Assembly: GCA_049510395.1 (NCBI GenBank)
Contig: JBEKYY010000016.1
Location: forward strand, 3,095 to 67,094
Reading direction: 5' to 3'
DNA length: 64,000 bases
Source of the DNA: Verrucomicrobiota bacterium
Lineage (GTDB): Bacteria > Verrucomicrobiota > Verrucomicrobiia > Limisphaerales > UBA11358
Shown here: positions 44,282-63,319 of the stretch, in pieces
Layout: every line of letters begins with the position of its first letter
How positions within the stretch are numbered: position 1 is the stretch's first letter
The notes under the pieces: model-generated
The model's database searches: none
Told to the model about the DNA's origin: nothing
What the model saw: only the letters and a program-made list of their open reading frames with translations
Made by a program: the position numbers and the translations under genes

Positions 44282-45784
44282 ATGGCATCATTAAAATTGG
44301 TGGGCGGACAAAAACCAAGAGAAATCGCGGTGCGCGTTTTGCAACAACGACGCGCCGGGGGCAAATTCATTGAAGATTTGCTTGAAACCGCGCTGCATGG
44401 CGCGCAACTTTTGCCCGCCGACCGCGCGCTCTGTCAGGAAATCGTGTACGGCATCGTGCGCTGGCAGGCGACACTCGACTGGCTCATCGCTCGAAAAACA
44501 GATGGGCGCGAACAAAAGCCCGCCTTGCAAAACTTGTTGCGGCTCGGCCTCTACCAAATTTTTTGGCTCGACCGGATTCCCGACCATGCTGCCGTCAACG
44601 AAACCATCGAATTGGCCAAGCAGAATGGTTTTGGCGCCCAGGCCGGTTTTGTGAACGCTGTTCTGCGCGGCTACTTGCGCGAGCATGACGAAACCAAAAA
44701 ACTTCTGGCCGGATTAAAAATTTCGCAGCCCGCACTGGGCTGGTCGCATCCCAAAGGGCTGGTTGCCCGCTGGCAAAAGCGCTGGGGCATCGAAAAAACC
44801 GCGTCGCTTCTGGAATGGAACAACACACCGCCGAAAACCTTCGCGCGCGTCAACACGCTGAAATTTGGTAGGGCGGGCAGTCCCCTGCCCGCCGAACGCC
44901 AGCAAGCCGAGAGCGGCGCGCACGGAGTGACGCGCCCTACCTTGAAAGATGCCGGCGACCTGCTCACCCGCTGGCGCGATGAAGGCGTGGAATACGATTT
45001 CGTTCGGCGCGACTGGCTGGAGGAAAACCTGGTCTTTGAGATGAAGTCGCATCCGCCACTATCGTCGCTGGCGAGTTTTCGCGACGGCTGGTTTTACATT
45101 CAAGACCCCGGCACGCTGCTCGCCGTTTGCATGCTCGGACCGCAGCCCGGCGAAACGATTTTGGATTTCTGCGCCGCGCCCGGTGGCAAGACGACGTTCA
45201 TCGCGCAGTTGATGAACAACCAGGGCCGCATTGTCGCGCAGGACGTTTCGGATGAACGACTGAAATGGATCCAAGAAAATTGCCTACGACTGGGTGTCAC
45301 CTGCGTAGACACTTTCCTCAACACCCCTCACCCCGGCCCTCTCCCCGTTTGGCGGGGAGAGGGAGAAAAATCTGAAACCACGCAAAAACATTCCCTCTCC
45401 CCGCCCAGGCGGGGAGAGGGTGGTCCCCGTAAAGCGGGACCGGGTGAGGGGATCGAAAAATTCGACCGCGTCCTGGTGGACGCTCCGTGTTCCAACACCG
45501 GTGTAATGCGCCGCCGCGTGGATTTGCGCTGGCGGATCCAGTCGGAGGAAATCGAACGCCTCCGGGTCGTGCAACTGGATTTGCTCCAACAAGCCGCGAC
45601 CCAGGTGAAACCCGGCGGTGTTTTGGTGTACAGCACGTGCAGCCTGGAACCGGAGGAAAACGGCGGGGTTGTGAAGCAATTTTTAAGCGATCACACCGGG
45701 TTCAAATTGGAATCCGAGCGCGAGTTGCTGCCGTTTGTGGACAATGTGGACGGCGCTTACGTCGCGCGAATGAAAAAAGGGTAG
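44282..45784 (+). CDS. rsmB: 16S rRNA (cytosine967-C5)-methyltransferase RsmB/Sun carrying two in-frame repeat-element insertions
   Basis: The ATG at 44282 is inside the 1002-aa ORF, whose upstream part is the antisense of the greA-like gene. There is a NusB-like N-domain, then DFCAAPGGKT, FDRVLVDAPCSNTGVMRR and GGVLVYSTCSLEPEEN. Confidence 0.9.
   Translation: MASLKLVGGQKPREIAVRVLQQRRAGGKFIEDLLETALHGAQLLPADRALCQEIVYGIVRWQATLDWLIARKTDGREQKPALQNLLRLGLYQIFWLDRIPDHAAVNETIELAKQNGFGAQAGFVNAVLRGYLREHDETKKLLAGLKISQPALGWSHPKGLVARWQKRWGIEKTASLLEWNNTPPKTFARVNTLKFGRAGSPLPAERQQAESGAHGVTRPTLKDAGDLLTRWRDEGVEYDFVRRDWLEENLVFEMKSHPPLSSLASFRDGWFYIQDPGTLLAVCMLGPQPGETILDFCAAPGGKTTFIAQLMNNQGRIVAQDVSDERLKWIQENCLRLGVTCVDTFLNTPHPGPLPVWRGEGEKSETTQKHSLSPPRRGEGGPRKAGPGEGIEKFDRVLVDAPCSNTGVMRRRVDLRWRIQSEEIERLRVVQLDLLQQAATQVKPGGVLVYSTCSLEPEENGGVVKQFLSDHTGFKLESERELLPFVDNVDGAYVARMKKG
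44867..44941 (+). repeat. family B palindromic element (75 bp = 25 codons) inserted in frame in rsmB
   Basis: ggtagggcgggcagtcccctgcccgcc...ggcgcgcacggagtgacgcgccctacc, translated GRAGSPLPAERQQAESGAHGVTRPT. Confidence 0.8.
45324..45451 (+). repeat. family D composite element inserted in frame in the rsmB methyltransferase domain
   Basis: cccctcaccccgg + hairpin 45337..45363 + spacer + hairpin 45393..45420 + ...ccgggtgagggg. It is translated TPHPGPLPVWRGEGEKSETTQKHSLSPPRRGEGGPRKAGPGEG. Confidence 0.8.
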
Positions 45785-45935
45785 CACCCGCGTCTTGCGG
45801 GTCAAATTCGGCGTCCCGCCGAATTTCGTCGAGGGATGCTGTGGTCGGAAGAACGTCCGAGCGGAATGCGTCCATCCGTCTCCTGACGGTTTCGGGCGCG
45901 ACGCCCGAAACAACAGGCCGGAGGCCTGTGCTACC
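45780..45935 (+). repeat. family C palindromic element (GGTAGCAC...GTGCTACC), fills the rsmB/fabI convergent spacer
   Basis: ggtagcacccgcgtcttgcgggtcaaattcggcgtcccgccgaatt...gtttcgggcgcgacgcccgaaac...cctgtgctacc. Its TAG (45782..45784) is the rsmB stop codon. Confidence 0.75.
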
Positions 45936-46706
45936 TCAAATCCCCATGATCTGGTAGCCACAATCCACGTAAAGCACCTGCCCGGTGATGGCCGCGGCGC
46001 CGTCGCTGGCGAGGAACACGCCGGTCGCGCCGAGTTCGTCGGGCAGCACGTTGCGCTTGAGCGGCGCGTGGACTTCGTGATGTTTGATCATTTCATTGAA
46101 ACCGCTTATGCCGCGCGCCGCCAGCGTGTTAACCGGCCCGGCGCTGATGCAATTCACACGGATTTTTTTCGGGCCGAGATCGTAGGCGAGATAGCGTGTG
46201 CTGGCTTCGAGCGCGGCCTTGGCCACGCCCATGACGTTGTAATGCGGCACGACTTTTTCCGCGCCGTAATAACTCATGCCAATGATGCTGCCACCGTCGG
46301 GCATGAGCGGCACAGCGGCACGCGACAGCGCGACGAGTGAATAGGCGCTCACGTCGTGGGCGATGCGGAACGCCTCGCGACTGGTATTCACGAATTCGCC
46401 TTCGAGCGCGGCCTTCGGCGCGAACGCCACCGAGTGCAGGAGCAAATGTAGCTTGCCGAATTTTTCGCCGACGGTTTTGAAGACGCCGGCGATTTCCTCG
46501 TCCTTCGTCACATCACACGGCAGGATGAGCGTGTCCGCGCCGAACTCGCCGGCGAGTTCCGTGACACTTTCCTTGACGCGATCGCCCTGATACGTGAATG
46601 CGAGCTTCGCGCCTTCGCGCACCCACGCCTGCGCAATGGCCCAGGCAATGGAGCGTTGGTTGGCAACACCGAAGACAATTCCTAATTTCCCGTCGAGCAA
46701 TGGCAT
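45936..46706 (-). CDS. fabI: enoyl-[acyl-carrier-protein] reductase (NADH)
   Basis: MPLLDGKLGIVFGVANQRSIAWAIAQ..., YYGAEKVVPHYNVMGVAKAALEAS, and ISAGPVNTLAA. Confidence 0.95.
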   Translation of the reverse strand: MPLLDGKLGIVFGVANQRSIAWAIAQAWVREGAKLAFTYQGDRVKESVTELAGEFGADTLILPCDVTKDEEIAGVFKTVGEKFGKLHLLLHSVAFAPKAALEGEFVNTSREAFRIAHDVSAYSLVALSRAAVPLMPDGGSIIGMSYYGAEKVVPHYNVMGVAKAALEASTRYLAYDLGPKKIRVNCISAGPVNTLAARGISGFNEMIKHHEVHAPLKRNVLPDELGATGVFLASDGAAAITGQVLYVDCGYQIMGI

Positions 46707-61344: not shown

Positions 61345-62172
61345 GTGAATTTTCTCGACAAAATTGTGGAAGAAAAAAAGCGCGAGGTCGCGAAGTTGCC
61401 CGCACGGCTCATCGTGGTGGGCGATTTTCGCGATGCGTTGCTCGAACGTGGCGAACGGCGTGACTTTGTCGCGGCGTTGCGCCAGCCGCGACACGGCGAC
61501 ATCGCGTTGATTGCCGAGGTCAAAAAAGCGTCGCCGTCGGCAGGGGTGATTTGCCAGAACTTCGATCCGGTTCGCATTGCGAAGGAATACGAGGCGGCGG
61601 GCGCAAGTTGTTTGTCGGTACTGACCGACGGGAAGTTTTTTCAGGGTTCGCTGGATCATCTCCGGCAAATCCGCGCCGCCGTGAAGCTGCCGCTGCTGTG
61701 CAAGGATTTCATGATTGATGAGCGGCAAATCCTCGAAGCCATCGAGTGGGGCGCAGACGCCATCCTGCTCATCGTGGCCATCTTGAACGACGAACAATTG
61801 AAAAAATTCCATTCCCTCGCGGTGGAGGCGGGCCTGGCCGCGCTGGTTGAAGTGCACGATGAGACGGAACTGGCCCGGGCGATGAAAATCGGCGCAACCC
61901 TCATCGGCGTAAACAATCGCAATTTGAAAAATTTCAAGGTGGACCTGGCGACAACTGAACGGCTGGCGACGCGATTAAAAAGTAGCGCAGGCGTCTCGCC
62001 TGCAACGAACAGGCGGGACGCCTGTGCTACTTTGCTCGTCGCCGAAAGTGGGATTCATTCACGCGCGGACGTGGAGCGATTGAAGCAGTGCGGTGCCAAT
62101 GCCATTCTGGTGGGCGAATCGTTGATGCGCGGCGGGAATATTCAGAAGAAAGTTCGGGAATTGATGGGGTAG
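61345..62172 (+). CDS. trpC: indole-3-glycerol phosphate synthase
   Basis: NFLDKIVEEKKREV, IAEVKKASPS.G, LSVLTD..FFQGS, VNNRNLKNF and VAESGI. The GTG at 61345 is preferred over the listed TTG at 61327 (uncertain). Confidence 0.9.
   Translation: MNFLDKIVEEKKREVAKLPARLIVVGDFRDALLERGERRDFVAALRQPRHGDIALIAEVKKASPSAGVICQNFDPVRIAKEYEAAGASCLSVLTDGKFFQGSLDHLRQIRAAVKLPLLCKDFMIDERQILEAIEWGADAILLIVAILNDEQLKKFHSLAVEAGLAALVEVHDETELARAMKIGATLIGVNNRNLKNFKVDLATTERLATRLKSSAGVSPATNRRDACATLLVAESGIHSRADVERLKQCGANAILVGESLMRGGNIQKKVRELMG
61982..62030 (+). repeat. mini family C palindrome embedded in the trpC coding sequence
   Basis: gtagcgcaggcgtctcgcctgc-aacgaac-aggcgggacgcctgtgctac, with termini GTAGCRCAGG inverted. 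It encodes part of the extra loop SSAGVSPATNRRDACAT. Confidence 0.65.
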
Positions 62173-62321
62173 CACCCGCGTTCCGCGGGTTCAATTCGGC
62201 GTCTCGCCGAATTGTCATGGCAAATGGAGCCCACCAATTATTTTTACCGCACCAACAAATCTTGTCCGCCGCTCGTTTCGGGCGTGACGCCCGAAACCAC
62301 CCGCGAGACGCGGGTGCTACC
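62168..62321 (+). repeat. family C palindromic element, fills the trpC/pdxA convergent spacer
   Basis: ggtagcacccgcgttccgcgggttcaattcggcgtctcgccgaatt...gtttcgggcgtgacgcccgaaac...cgggtgctacc. Its TAG (62170..62172) is the trpC stop codon. Confidence 0.75.
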
Positions 62322-62326
62322 ACAGA

Positions 62327-63319
62327 TTACGTACGGTTTTTCGCCAATTGCTTCGCCAGTCGAATGGCGGCAATCATGCTGGAGGGATTGGCGATTCCTT
62401 TTCCCGCGATGTCGTAAGCCGTGCCGTGGTCGGGTGACGTGCGGATGAATGGCAGGCCCAGCGTCCAGTTCACACCGGTGTCAAACGCAACGGCTTTCAG
62501 CGGCGCGAGACCCTGGTCGTGATACATCGCCACCACGGCGTCAAAATCTCCCCGCAGGGCATAATGAAAAACCGTGTCACCGCTCAACGGACCAACAACG
62601 TCGAGCCCGCGTTTTTTCGCGGCGAGAACGGTCGGCGTGATGGTTTTTATTTCTTCGTCGCCAAATTGCCCGCCTTCGCCCGCGTGCGGATTCAAACCAC
62701 AAACAGCCACCCGCGCGCGCGGCAATTGCAAATCGCGGCACGCTTGCGCCGCCAATTCGATGGCGAGCGTGAGTTTTTCCGGCGTAAGCTTTTCCGGAAC
62801 CGATTTAATCGAAATGTGAATCGTGGCCAGCGCAATGCGCAGCCAGCGTCCGCGTTCATCATGGCCGAGCAGCATCATGGCGGTGCGTCTGGCATTGGCG
62901 AGTCCGGAAAGAAATTCCGTCTGGCCGGTGAATTCGTGTCCGGCACGGATGATGGATTCCTTGTTGACCGGCGCGGTCACGAGCGCGTCCAGTTCGTGGC
63001 GGAGGCAGCGTTCGGCACCATCACGCAGTGACGCAACGGCAGCGTGCGCGGCAACGGGCGAACCGGCGGGCAAATTCTCCGGCAGTGGCTCGGCCAATGG
63101 ATTCGTGACGAAGAACCGGCCGGACTCGCCGTAACCGGAAAAATTTTTCAGCGGCAGTTTGAGTCCGGACTTTTGGTTGAGGTGAAGCACGCAATCCCGG
63201 GCACCAATCAGCAGGTAGCGCGTTTGATCGCCGGCGGTTTCGGCGGCGATGGCTTTGAGCGCGACTTCGGGGCCGATGCCGGTGACATCGCCAAGCGTAA
63301 TGCCAATCCAGCCAGTCAT
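62327..63319 (-). CDS. pdxA: 4-hydroxythreonine-4-phosphate dehydrogenase
   Basis: MTGWIGITLGDVTGIGPEV..., GLNPHAGEGG, AMYHDQGL and IRTSPDHGTA. The ATG at 63319 is inside the listed ORF. Confidence 0.93.
   Translation of the reverse strand: MTGWIGITLGDVTGIGPEVALKAIAAETAGDQTRYLLIGARDCVLHLNQKSGLKLPLKNFSGYGESGRFFVTNPLAEPLPENLPAGSPVAAHAAVASLRDGAERCLRHELDALVTAPVNKESIIRAGHEFTGQTEFLSGLANARRTAMMLLGHDERGRWLRIALATIHISIKSVPEKLTPEKLTLAIELAAQACRDLQLPRARVAVCGLNPHAGEGGQFGDEEIKTITPTVLAAKKRGLDVVGPLSGDTVFHYALRGDFDAVVAMYHDQGLAPLKAVAFDTGVNWTLGLPFIRTSPDHGTAYDIAGKGIANPSSMIAAIRLAKQLAKNRT

What the first reader, a model, noticed from the sequence alone, without database searches (positions are those of the whole stretch)
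44867..45451. rsmB tolerates two different palindromic elements in frame (75-bp family B and ~128-bp family D composite)
**Seen in the sequence.** Element 1 (44867..44941) is exactly 75 bp, or 25 codons, with inverted termini GGTAGGGCG/CGCCCTACC and two internal GC hairpins. It sits between the NusB-like N-domain and the methyltransferase domain (..RVNTLKF[GRAGSPLPAERQQAESGAHGVTRPT]LKDAGDLL..). Element 2 (45324..45451) has outer inverted repeats CCCCTCACCCCGG/CCGGGTGAGGGG enclosing two CCCTCTCCCCG...CGGGGAGAGGG hairpins. It lies between the GVTCV strand and the FDRVLVDAPCS motif, and encodes TPHPGPLPVWRGEGEKSETTQKHSLSPPRRGEGGPRKAGPGEG.

**Why it matters.** Both element families also occur in intergenic DNA in this window, so the direction of the event is element into gene. 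Two independent insertions in one housekeeping gene, both frame-preserving, imply either strong filtering for in-frame, loop-located events or an insertion mechanism with a codon-compatible length.
Basis: partly seen in the sequence, partly recalled or inferred. Interest (0 to 1): 0.6.

Follow-up and report, generated by a model that had tools for sequence, protein, structure and literature searches.

The report
Mobile palindromes translated inside rsmB
Two small selfish palindromic DNA repeats sit in frame in two floppy surface loops of an intact 16S rRNA methyltransferase gene of a peat Verrucomicrobiota bacterium; this has been known in the phylum since 2013, but here close relatives carry many different palindromes at exactly the same two spots.

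Summary
rsmB (44282-45784, 500 aa) carries a 75-nt GTAG-tagged REP doublet (44867-44941) and a 128-nt composite of CCCTCTCC..GGAGAGGG hairpins (45324-45451). Both are read through in frame.

- **Resident repeats.** Both belong to repeat families of this genome: 122 REP units at 84 loci and 116 hairpins at 88 loci. Reversed-genome controls gave 1 and 0.
- **Orthologues.** Most lack both inserts.
- **Structure.** A confident AlphaFold model (pLDDT 88) is uncertain only at the two inserts. Both lie in loops between secondary-structure elements.
- **Not unique to rsmB.** About 43 other copies sit in frame in housekeeping genes such as uvrA, uvrC, uvrD, mutS, metH, leuS and valS.
- **Length.** Element lengths are not codon-compatible, so selection is the filter.

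This is the published phenomenon of intragenic GTAG REPs (Di Nocera et al. 2013, Opitutus terrae) and works like the Rickettsia palindromic elements. It is a new member of a known kind.

The added finding is that, among 111 close RsmB homologues, site 1 holds at least 7 and site 2 at least 10 alternative cassettes in nearly all combinations, with conserved junctions. How these cassettes are exchanged is unresolved.

The parts
44282..45784 (+). rsmB, 16S rRNA (cytosine967-C5)-methyltransferase. Intact 500-aa ORF that reads through both inserts.
   Evidence: AlphaFold model with pLDDT 88.3; best PDB match is E. coli Fmu/RsmB 1sqf, TM 0.89.
44864..44947 (+). Whole extra stretch at site 1 compared with empty orthologues: TTT + REP doublet + TTGAAA. 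It encodes residues 195-222, a net gain of 27 aa.
   Evidence: Protein and DNA comparison with L008-L029 and with L138/L139.
44867..44893 (+). Left REP unit of family B: G-GTAG-GGCGGGCAG tccc CTGCCCGCC, a GTAG tag followed by a 9-bp stem.
   Evidence: The identical sequence type occurs in several families of the order.
44894..44914 (+). Spacer between the two REP units. It varies among homologues.
   Evidence: Own gene against P0004: the REP stems are identical, while the spacer differs at about a quarter to a third of its 21 nt.
44915..44941 (-). Right REP unit of family B in inverted orientation: GGCGCGCACGGAGTGACGCGCC-CTAC-C. Its GTAG tag points outward.
45324..45451 (.). Family-D composite, 128 nt. 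It has outer inverted repeats CCCCTCACCCCGG / CCGGGTGAGGGG. Inside are hairpins at 45337-45363 and 45393-45420, and a small hairpin at about 45421-45441.
   Evidence: A homologous composite occurs in L008, P0003, P0032 and P0114.
45780..45936 (.). A third REP family (GGTAGCACCCGCG.. doublet) fills the convergent gap between rsmB and the next gene. Its GTAG supplies the rsmB stop codon TAG at 45782-45784.
   Evidence: repeat families D13, D17, I4, I6. The same family flanks the RAYT inside priA.

Best explanation
Two resident selfish palindromic repeats have been inserted, in separate events, into two loop-coding positions of rsmB. Both are translated as part of the protein.

- **Site 1.** The insert is a doublet of GTAG-tagged REP hairpins with the tags pointing outward. 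This is a REPIN- or BIME-like unit, the kind of element mobilised by Y1/HUH 'RAYT' transposases.
- **Site 2.** The insert is a composite of CCCTCTCC..GGAGAGGG hairpins bounded by GGGGTGAGG-type ends.

**Shown**
- Both are members of multicopy families of this genome.
- Most orthologues lack them.
- Both sit in low-confidence loops protruding from an otherwise confidently modelled RsmB fold.
- The same families lie in frame in about 43 other genes.
- Element lengths are not intrinsically multiples of three.

**Inferred**
- Insertions land wherever a suitable A/T-rich target occurs.
- Only copies that keep the frame, carry no stop codon and fall in structurally permissive loops survive purifying selection on an important gene.
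- The extra 27 and 36 residues are then carried as disordered surface loops with no function of their own.
- Once a loop holds such a cassette, its content turns over among close relatives while the junctions stay fixed. At least 7 cassette types occur at site 1 and at least 10 at site 2.
For: **Family membership**
- nhmmer at E <= 1 finds 122 family-B units; the reversed-genome control finds 1.
- 36 of the 38 doublets have the GTAG tags pointing outward, and none has the opposite order.
- Stems vary with compensatory changes.
- Family D has 116 hairpins; the control finds 0.
- Family B occurs in 27 of 41 related genomes and family D in 31 of 41.

**Absence from orthologues**
-.
- On a tree of 111 homologues, empty versus occupied at site 1 changes only 3 times.

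**Loop location**
- The AlphaFold model has mean pLDDT 88.3 and pTM 0.86.
- The only sizeable low-confidence stretches are 191-220 (block means 80, 57, 64) and 351-390 (44, 38, 38, 51).
- They lie between strand 187-190 and helix 224-233, and between strands 342-346 and 394-400.
- The fold matches E. coli RsmB 1sqf.

**Genome-wide in-frame copies**
- 24 of 84 family-B loci and 19 of 88 family-D loci lie in ORFs with at least 100 codons on each side. In each, the spanning frame is also the best codon-usage frame on both flanks.
- Pfam domains lie on both sides in MqnC-like, UvrC, U32 peptidase, MiaB-like, XseA, LeuRS, HemE, ValRS, UvrA, MetH, HrpB, UbiD, MutS, AceE and UvrD.

**Selection as the filter**
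- The mod-3 distribution of core lengths and the count of stop-free frames.
- All 120 close homologues are intact proteins of 433-521 aa.

**Target preference**
- The first base after the right (CTACC) end of family-B doublets is A or T in 33 of 36 cases, and the base before the left end in 26 of 36.
- There is no target-site duplication.

**Prior description**
- Di Nocera et al. 2013 (PMC3733652) described the same behaviour.
Against:
- No RAYT flanked by family-B REPs was found. This holds for this 94%-complete genome and for 29 Y1-transposase loci of relatives. Mobilisation by a RAYT is therefore inferred from the GTAG-hairpin architecture only.
- Family D has no identified transposase.
- Loop tolerance rests on a predicted structure, not on activity data.
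- Pure tolerance does not by itself explain why many different cassettes share identical junctions (AAATTT | cassette | TT(G/C)AAAGAT).
Confidence: 0.88

Rival explanations
1. The two loops are true landing pads. A site-specific reaction, for example Y1/RAYT cleavage and rejoining at REP hairpins or at the A/T-rich junctions, repeatedly excises one palindromic cassette and installs another. Site reuse would then reflect the mechanism and not only tolerance.
For: - Own gene against P0003 (86% identical): the flanks are identical up to CTGAAATTT and from TT(G/C)AAAGAT, but the 75-nt palindrome between them is unrelated.
- On a tree of 111 homologues the cassette type changes at least 43 times at site 1 and at least 45 times at site 2. 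Occupancy of site 1 changes only 3 times.
- Several of the alternative cassettes are themselves multicopy palindromes in this genome.
- REP stems are 100% identical between the own gene and P0004, while the loop and spacer have diverged.
- One relative (L006) has a family-D element nested inside the family-B doublet.
Against: - The rsmB gene tree of very similar sequences is poorly resolved. Homologous recombination between alleles would inflate the change counts without any new insertion.
- Families B and D do not lie near each other more often than chance: 1 of 84 within 300 nt against 1.5 expected.
- No enzyme has been tied to the exchange.
- The shared TTT and GDLL flanks could simply be lineage markers of one ancient insertion.
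Confidence: 0.25
2. The inserts are adaptive. The host recruited the peptides, for example as RNA- or ribosome-contacting extensions of RsmB, and they are kept for their protein function.
For: - The arm-encoded peptides GRAGSPLPA and GAHGVTRPT are conserved among the 22 homologues that carry family B at site 1.
- Host genes are enriched for nucleic-acid enzymes.
Against: - The same DNA occurs in non-coding regions and is read in different frames in other genes, as VGRAVPSAP..APYQ or as GRAGSPLPA.
- Close relatives replace the peptides with unrelated ones or have none.
- The model gives no confident structure for them.
- Conservation tracks the DNA stems and not the spacer.
Confidence: 0.05
3. 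The inserts are an artefact or a sign of decay. Either the MAG contig is mis-assembled across repeats, or rsmB is a pseudogene whose open frame is accidental.
For: - The genome is a 72-contig MAG.
- Repeats are a common cause of mis-assembly.
Against: - The same arrangement is found on independent contigs of up to 466 kb from other samples. P0003 and P0004 have the same flanking genes.
- The identical protein is on record in the public collection (P0002).
- The catalytic motifs are intact, and homologues share 74-86% identity along their full length.
Confidence: 0.02

Closest known systems
Intragenic GTAG-tagged REPs and REP dimers (Di Nocera, De Gregorio and Rocco 2013, BMC Genomics 14:522, PMC3733652), with the highest number in the verrucomicrobium Opitutus terrae
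   Same: - A GTAG tag followed by a short stem-loop.
- Dimers in inverted orientation.
- Dimers encode 20-30 amino acids in frame inside known genes.
- Some genes are hit twice.
- Hosts are enriched for repair and RNA enzymes such as uvrA, uvrD and tRNA synthetases.
- The GTAG tag can supply a TAG stop codon.
   Different: - A different order (Limisphaerales/Pedosphaerales-type peat MAG) and a different sequence family (GGTAGGGCG(C/G)G).
- rsmB is a new host gene.
- Here a second, non-GTAG hairpin family shares the gene.
- Close relatives show many alternative cassettes at the same two codons. I did not find that described in the paper.
Rickettsia palindromic elements (RPE; Ogata et al. 2000 Science 290:347; Ogata et al. 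2002 Genome Res 12:808; summarised in PMC10969869)
   Same: - Palindromic selfish repeats inserted in frame in dozens of unrelated housekeeping genes.
- The positions are judged compatible with the protein fold.
   Different: - The RPEs first described are about 150 bp.
- Di Nocera et al. 2013 report that the short families RPE-4 and RPE-6 are CGTC-tagged repeats, which have no dedicated transposase.
- They come from an obligate intracellular alphaproteobacterium.
- There is no sequence relationship to the elements here.
REPINs and their RAYT transposases (Bertels and Rainey 2011, PMC3116915; Nunvar et al. 2010)
   Same: - Inverted REP doublets are the repeated unit.
- The doublets form a within-genome population.
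- There is no target-site duplication.
   Different: - Classical REPINs are almost entirely extragenic, and their two arms are near-identical.
- Here the two arms of the rsmB copy are different sequence types.
- About 29% of loci are genic.
- No cognate RAYT was found next to family-B REPs.
TIR repeats of TIRYT (TIR-associated tyrosine transposase) genes with the GGGGWSAS motif (Di Nocera et al. 2013)
   Same: The ends of family D read GGGGTGAG(G), which fits GGGGWSAS. Family D also occurs as dimers and clusters.
   Different: - No tyrosine-transposase gene flanked by family-D ends was found here.
- The one TIR-flanked Y1 gene seen (G000:C7:62905-63879) has unrelated TIRs.

Membership tests
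GTAG-tagged REP / REP dimer (family B, element 1) | A short (20-40 nt) imperfect palindrome tagged at one end by GTAG | tested here: met
   G-GTAG-GGCGGGCAG/CTGCCCGCC and its inverted partner. Stems vary with compensatory changes.
GTAG-tagged REP / REP dimer (family B, element 1) | High copy number, dispersed through the genome | tested here: met
   122 units at 84 loci against 1 in the reversed-genome control. The strict pattern gives 92 matches against 0 in the control.
GTAG-tagged REP / REP dimer (family B, element 1) | Units paired in inverted orientation at a characteristic spacing (REPIN/BIME-like) | tested here: met
   36 of 38 doublets have the tags pointing outward. There are two length classes, about 55-64 nt and about 74-80 nt. 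The rsmB copy is 75 nt.
GTAG-tagged REP / REP dimer (family B, element 1) | A cognate RAYT gene flanked by the same REPs | tested here: not met
   None of the seven Y1_Tnp hits in the genome lies within 3 kb of a family-B unit. Only 1 of 29 Y1 loci from relatives has a family-B-like motif. The genome is 94% complete, so absence is not proven.
GTAG-tagged REP / REP dimer (family B, element 1) | Predominantly extragenic location | tested here: inconclusive
   42 of 84 loci are clearly outside long ORFs, 24-26 are inside genes, and 16 are ambiguous. 51% of random genome positions fall inside such ORFs. The family is therefore depleted in genes but far from excluded.
Rickettsia palindromic elements (RPE) | Palindromic repeats inserted in frame in many protein-coding genes | tested here: met
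   About 43 in-frame copies in housekeeping genes. This shows it works like an RPE.
Rickettsia palindromic elements (RPE) | Sequence membership in an RPE family (CGTC-tagged or about 150 bp, Rickettsia lineage) | tested here: not met
   The elements are GTAG-tagged or GGGGTGAGG-ended, 75 and 128 nt long, and come from Verrucomicrobiota. They are not members.
MITE (DDE-transposase derived) | Terminal inverted repeats plus a target-site duplication | tested here: not met
   Inverted termini are present, but no duplication flanks any of the 36 family-B doublets.
TIRYT-associated TIR repeats (family D, element 2) | Ends fitting GGGGWSAS, and the same ends flanking a tyrosine-transposase gene | tested here: inconclusive
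   The motif fits: GGGGTGAG. No transposase gene with family-D ends was found.
RsmB (16S rRNA m5C967 methyltransferase) | A NusB-like N domain, a ferredoxin-like domain and an RsmB/F methyltransferase domain with both catalytic cysteines; an equivalog score above the cut-off | tested here: met
   DAPCS (Cys403) and TCS (Cys453) are present. The fold matches 1sqf.

The most novel reading that the evidence does not exclude
The two RsmB loops, like comparable loops in other essential genes of Verrucomicrobiota, could be dedicated exchange sites. A single-strand, hairpin-directed tyrosine-transposase reaction would swap one palindromic cassette for another between fixed junctions (AAATTT | cassette | TTGAAA). 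The REP stems would be kept intact by selection at the DNA level while loops and spacers drift. Essential genes would then serve as safe, vertically inherited harbours for living REP populations. This genome's in-frame RAYT inside priA fits that picture.
Probability: 0.2. Interest if true: 0.65.

Novelty: new member of a known kind. Interest (0 to 1): 0.38.

Why it matters
It adds a well-documented case, with a structural model and an orthologue series, to the short list of bacteria in which selfish palindromes are routinely translated inside essential proteins. It shows that frame preservation comes from selection and not from the element's length.

The orthologue series is the more useful part. 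Two fixed codon positions carry a changing set of palindromic cassettes. This gives a natural experiment on loop tolerance in a conserved enzyme. It also gives a concrete place to test whether REP elements are exchanged site-specifically.

Tried and rejected
- **Loose regex census.** A search for GTAGGGCG with at most 1 mismatch plus any hairpin gave more hits in the reversed genome (548) than in the real one (384). I dropped it for an nhmmer profile.
- **Wrong spacing.** The first cross-genome pattern had the wrong spacing and matched nothing, not even the own genome. It was redone.
- **Shallow alignment.** The first AlphaFold run used 40 near-identical homologues and was unusable, with pLDDT 52.8. 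It was redone with diverse RsmB sequences.
- **REPs attracting other REPs.** Families B and D are not neighbours more often than chance.
- **Target-site duplication.** None was found around family-B doublets. The TGAAA..TGAAA flanking element 1 is not a general feature.
- **Cognate RAYT for family B.** Not found in the own genome or in 29 loci of relatives.
- **A transposase with family-D ends.** Not found.
- **Rfam.** Only one chance-level hairpin match, at E = 0.06.
- **A codon-compatible insertion mechanism.** Rejected on the mod-3 counts.
Full report
**What is there.** The window is contig C8:3095-67094 of a 3.46-Mb, 72-contig genome with 56.8% G+C. Source names for close protein homologues place it in Verrucomicrobiota, order Limisphaerales. 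Earlier notes of this scan describe it as coming from peat.

The ORF 44282-45784 encodes a 500-residue RsmB.
- It has a NusB-like domain, a ferredoxin-like domain and an RsmB/F methyltransferase domain.
- NCBIfam RsmB equivalogs score above their cut-offs.
- Its best solved relative is E. coli Fmu/RsmB.

Both elements are at the stated coordinates with the stated termini and peptides. As single strands they fold better than shuffled sequence. Element 1 gives -23.3 kcal/mol, z = -2.9. Element 2 gives -48.2 kcal/mol, z = -7.2.

**What the elements are.**

*Element 1* is two hairpins, each tagged on its outer side by GTAG.
- The left unit is G-GTAG-GGCGGGCAG tccc CTGCCCGCC.
- The right unit is the inverted GGCGCG..CGCGCC-CTAC-C.
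- This is the architecture of GTAG-type REPs arranged as an inverted dimer.

A profile built from strict seeds finds 122 units in the genome at E <= 1, against 1 in the reversed genome.
- The units form 84 loci.
- 36 of the 38 doublets have the tags outward, and none has the opposite order.
- Stem positions vary with compensatory changes.
- The strict pattern occurs in 27 of 41 related genomes. The own genome is richest, with 92 matches.
- The two sequence types seen in rsmB recur unchanged in several families of the order.

*Element 2* belongs to a second family built on CCCTCTCC..GGAGAGGG hairpins preceded by CCTCACCCC.
- There are 116 hairpins at 88 loci, against 0 in the control.
- The family occurs in 31 of 41 relatives.
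- Its ends, GGGGTGAG, fit the GGGGWSAS motif reported for repeats associated with tyrosine transposases.
- Rfam has nothing for either element.

**Direction and independence.** A search of 40 related genomes found rsmB in all of them.
- In most, the match breaks exactly at query residues about 194-196/222-223 and about 344-348/392-393.
- Aligned proteins and DNA show NTLK|TDAGKL with no insert at site 1. At site 2 there is a 14-15-residue linker.

The two sites have different distributions.
- L008 and P0114 have the family-D composite at site 2 and an empty site 1.
- P0004 has the same REP doublet at site 1 and a different cassette at site 2.

So these are two separate insertions of element into gene. 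The family-D composite of P0003 is about 9% diverged from the own copy and its hairpins are decaying. That fits an older, vertically inherited insert.

**Where they sit in the protein.** A first model from a shallow alignment was unusable. With 57 sequences, including diverse RsmB proteins from public genomes, the model has mean pLDDT 88.3 and pTM 0.86. It matches E. coli RsmB 1sqf with a target-normalised TM-score of 0.89.

Apart from the first five residues, the only low-confidence regions are the two inserts.
- Blocks 191-220 have pLDDT 80, 57 and 64.
- Blocks 351-390 have pLDDT 44, 38, 38 and 51.
- Site 1 lies between strand 187-190 and helix 224-233 of the ferredoxin-like domain. The Pfam match to that domain is cut at profile position 41 of 74.
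- Site 2 lies between Rossmann-fold strands 342-346 and 394-400 (FDRVLVD).
- Both catalytic cysteine motifs are intact.

**rsmB is not special.** I scored each element locus on two tests.
- Does an open frame span the element with at least 100 codons on each side?
- Is that frame also the best codon-usage frame on both flanks?

24 of 84 family-B loci and 19 of 88 family-D loci pass both. By comparison, 51% of random genome positions lie in such ORFs.

Pfam confirms domains on both sides in 19 hosts:
- an MqnC/CofH-like radical SAM enzyme, UvrC, a U32 peptidase and a MiaB-like enzyme;
- XseA, LeuRS, an amine oxidase, HemE, ValRS and UvrA;
- MetH (two copies), a class-III aminotransferase and a spermidine-synthase-like protein (one B and one D);
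- HrpB (one B and one D), UbiD and a pseudouridine synthase-methyltransferase fusion;
- MutS (two D), AceE and UvrD.

Five genes, rsmB included, carry two inserts. A rough uniform expectation is well under one.

**Why the inserts are in frame.** The outer-to-outer lengths of family-B doublets are not multiples of three in genes. The mod-3 counts are 1, 6 and 7 for residues 0, 1 and 2. Outside genes they are 10, 7 and 5.
- Element 2 is 128 nt.
- The net gains in rsmB, +27 and +36 residues, include or replace flanking bases.
- One forward frame of every GTAG unit contains TAG.
- Element 1 has 3 of 6 frames open and element 2 has 4 of 6.

Frame preservation is therefore a survivor effect and not a property of the mechanism. 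The bases immediately flanking family-B doublets are A/T-rich: A or T at 33 of 36 positions after the right (CTACC) end and at 26 of 36 before the left end. No duplication is present. This fits hairpin-directed, single-strand transposition and the AAATTT / TTGAAA flanks in rsmB.

Among 111 close homologues (74-86% identical, 433-521 aa), the two sites hold these states.
- Site 1 is empty, or holds the family-B doublet or one of at least six other cassettes.
- Site 2 holds a short linker, the family-D composite or at least eight other cassettes.
- Nearly all combinations of the two occur.

On a tree built without the insert columns:
- site-1 occupancy changes only 3 times;
- cassette type changes at least 43 times at site 1 (shuffled labels: mean 68, minimum 62);
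- cassette type changes at least 45 times at site 2 (shuffled labels: mean 64, minimum 58).

At the DNA level, the closest relative with a different site-1 cassette (P0003) is identical to the own gene up to CTGAAATTT and from TT(G/C)AAAGAT. Between those points it carries an unrelated 75-nt palindrome. Several of the foreign cassettes are multicopy palindromes in the own genome too. One relative has a family-D element nested in the family-B doublet.

Between the own gene and P0004 the REP stems are identical, while the loop and spacer have diverged.

Allelic recombination and a poorly resolved gene tree may account for much of the apparent turnover. Families B and D do not attract each other elsewhere in the genome. 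I therefore keep site-specific exchange as a minority hypothesis.

**Comparison with what is known.** Di Nocera, De Gregorio and Rocco (2013, PMC3733652) reported the following.
- GTAG- and CGTC-tagged REPs occur inside genes.
- Dimers encode 20-30 residues.
- Some genes are hit twice.
- There is a bias to repair and RNA enzymes.
- GTAG ends can supply TAG stop codons.

The Rickettsia palindromic elements are the classical functional analogue. The present case works the same way, in a new order, a new sequence family and a new host gene. One defining feature of REP-RAYT systems, a RAYT flanked by the same REPs, was looked for and not found for family B.

Earlier notes of this scan report the same behaviour in other Verrucomicrobiota, including reuse of single codons in uvrB, dnaE and a GH92 gene. 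I treated these as leads and tested the rsmB case independently.

**Limits.**
- Gene calls are my own ORF and codon-usage inference, checked by Pfam for 19 hosts.
- Change counts depend on a single-gene tree.
- The structure is predicted.

Noticed in passing
window 45780-45936: A third REP family (GGTAGCACCCGCG.. doublet, with a second copy at 62165-62327) fills the whole convergent gap between rsmB and the next gene. Its GTAG provides the rsmB stop codon TAG at 45782-45784. RsmB C-termini differ among orthologues at this point.
   Followed up: partly
G000:C23:33989-36997 (locus L169), outside the window: The priA ORF (1002 aa open frame) contains a complete REP-associated tyrosine transposase in frame at residues 269-407. 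NCBIfam NF047646 scores 82.1 bits against a cut-off of 80. The transposase lies between the 3'-DNA-binding domain and the helicase core. It is flanked by REPs of the GGTAGCACCCGCG family, translated as GSTRVPRVEAGIAPAS and VRRDAEHNPRDAGATQ. Y1_Tnp hits inside open frames of 950-1120 aa also occur in relatives G017, G026, G014 and G009.
   Followed up: partly
rsmB site 2 in orthologues (loci L005-L007, L009-L016, L019, L030) and genome-wide in G000: The 'empty' site-2 linker is itself made of heptanucleotide tandem repeats: CTTCAAC x4 gives FNLQPST, and CTCAAAA x4 and ATTTACG x3 also occur. In the own genome, period-7 arrays with at least 3 copies number 196, against 38 for period 6 and 39 for period 8. 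85 of the 196 lie inside long ORFs. This is an STRR-like heptamer repeat class that also enters coding sequence.
   Followed up: partly
G000: C34:44751-48917, C7:25096-27807, C5:84183-86639, C12:194308-197160 (loci L041, L044, L043, L047): Four further genes carry two in-frame palindromic inserts each: metH, hrpB, a spermidine-synthase-like gene and mutS. With about 43 genic copies in about 3000 genes, well under one such gene is expected by chance.
   Followed up: partly
locus L006 (G026:C100), rsmB site 1: A genome placed in another family of the order has the same family-B doublet at site 1, with a family-D-type hairpin element nested between its two arms (..GRAGSPLPA..PPRGEGWGEG..GAHGVTRPA..).
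   Followed up: no
search of relatives: The two family-B sequence types, GGTAGGGCGCGTCACTCCGTGCGCGCC and GGTAGGGCGGGCAGTCC(C/T)CTGCCCGCC, are letter-for-letter identical in genomes of several different families of the order. Housekeeping proteins in those genomes are only 60-70% identical.
   Followed up: no
G000:C7:62905-63879: A 324-aa open frame holds a Y1-transposase-like gene flanked by about 26-nt terminal inverted repeats (GGGGTCGGTTCTTATAATTGACAAT.. / ..ATTGTCAATTGTAAGAACCGACCCC). This is a TIRtron-like unit unrelated to families B and D.
   Followed up: no
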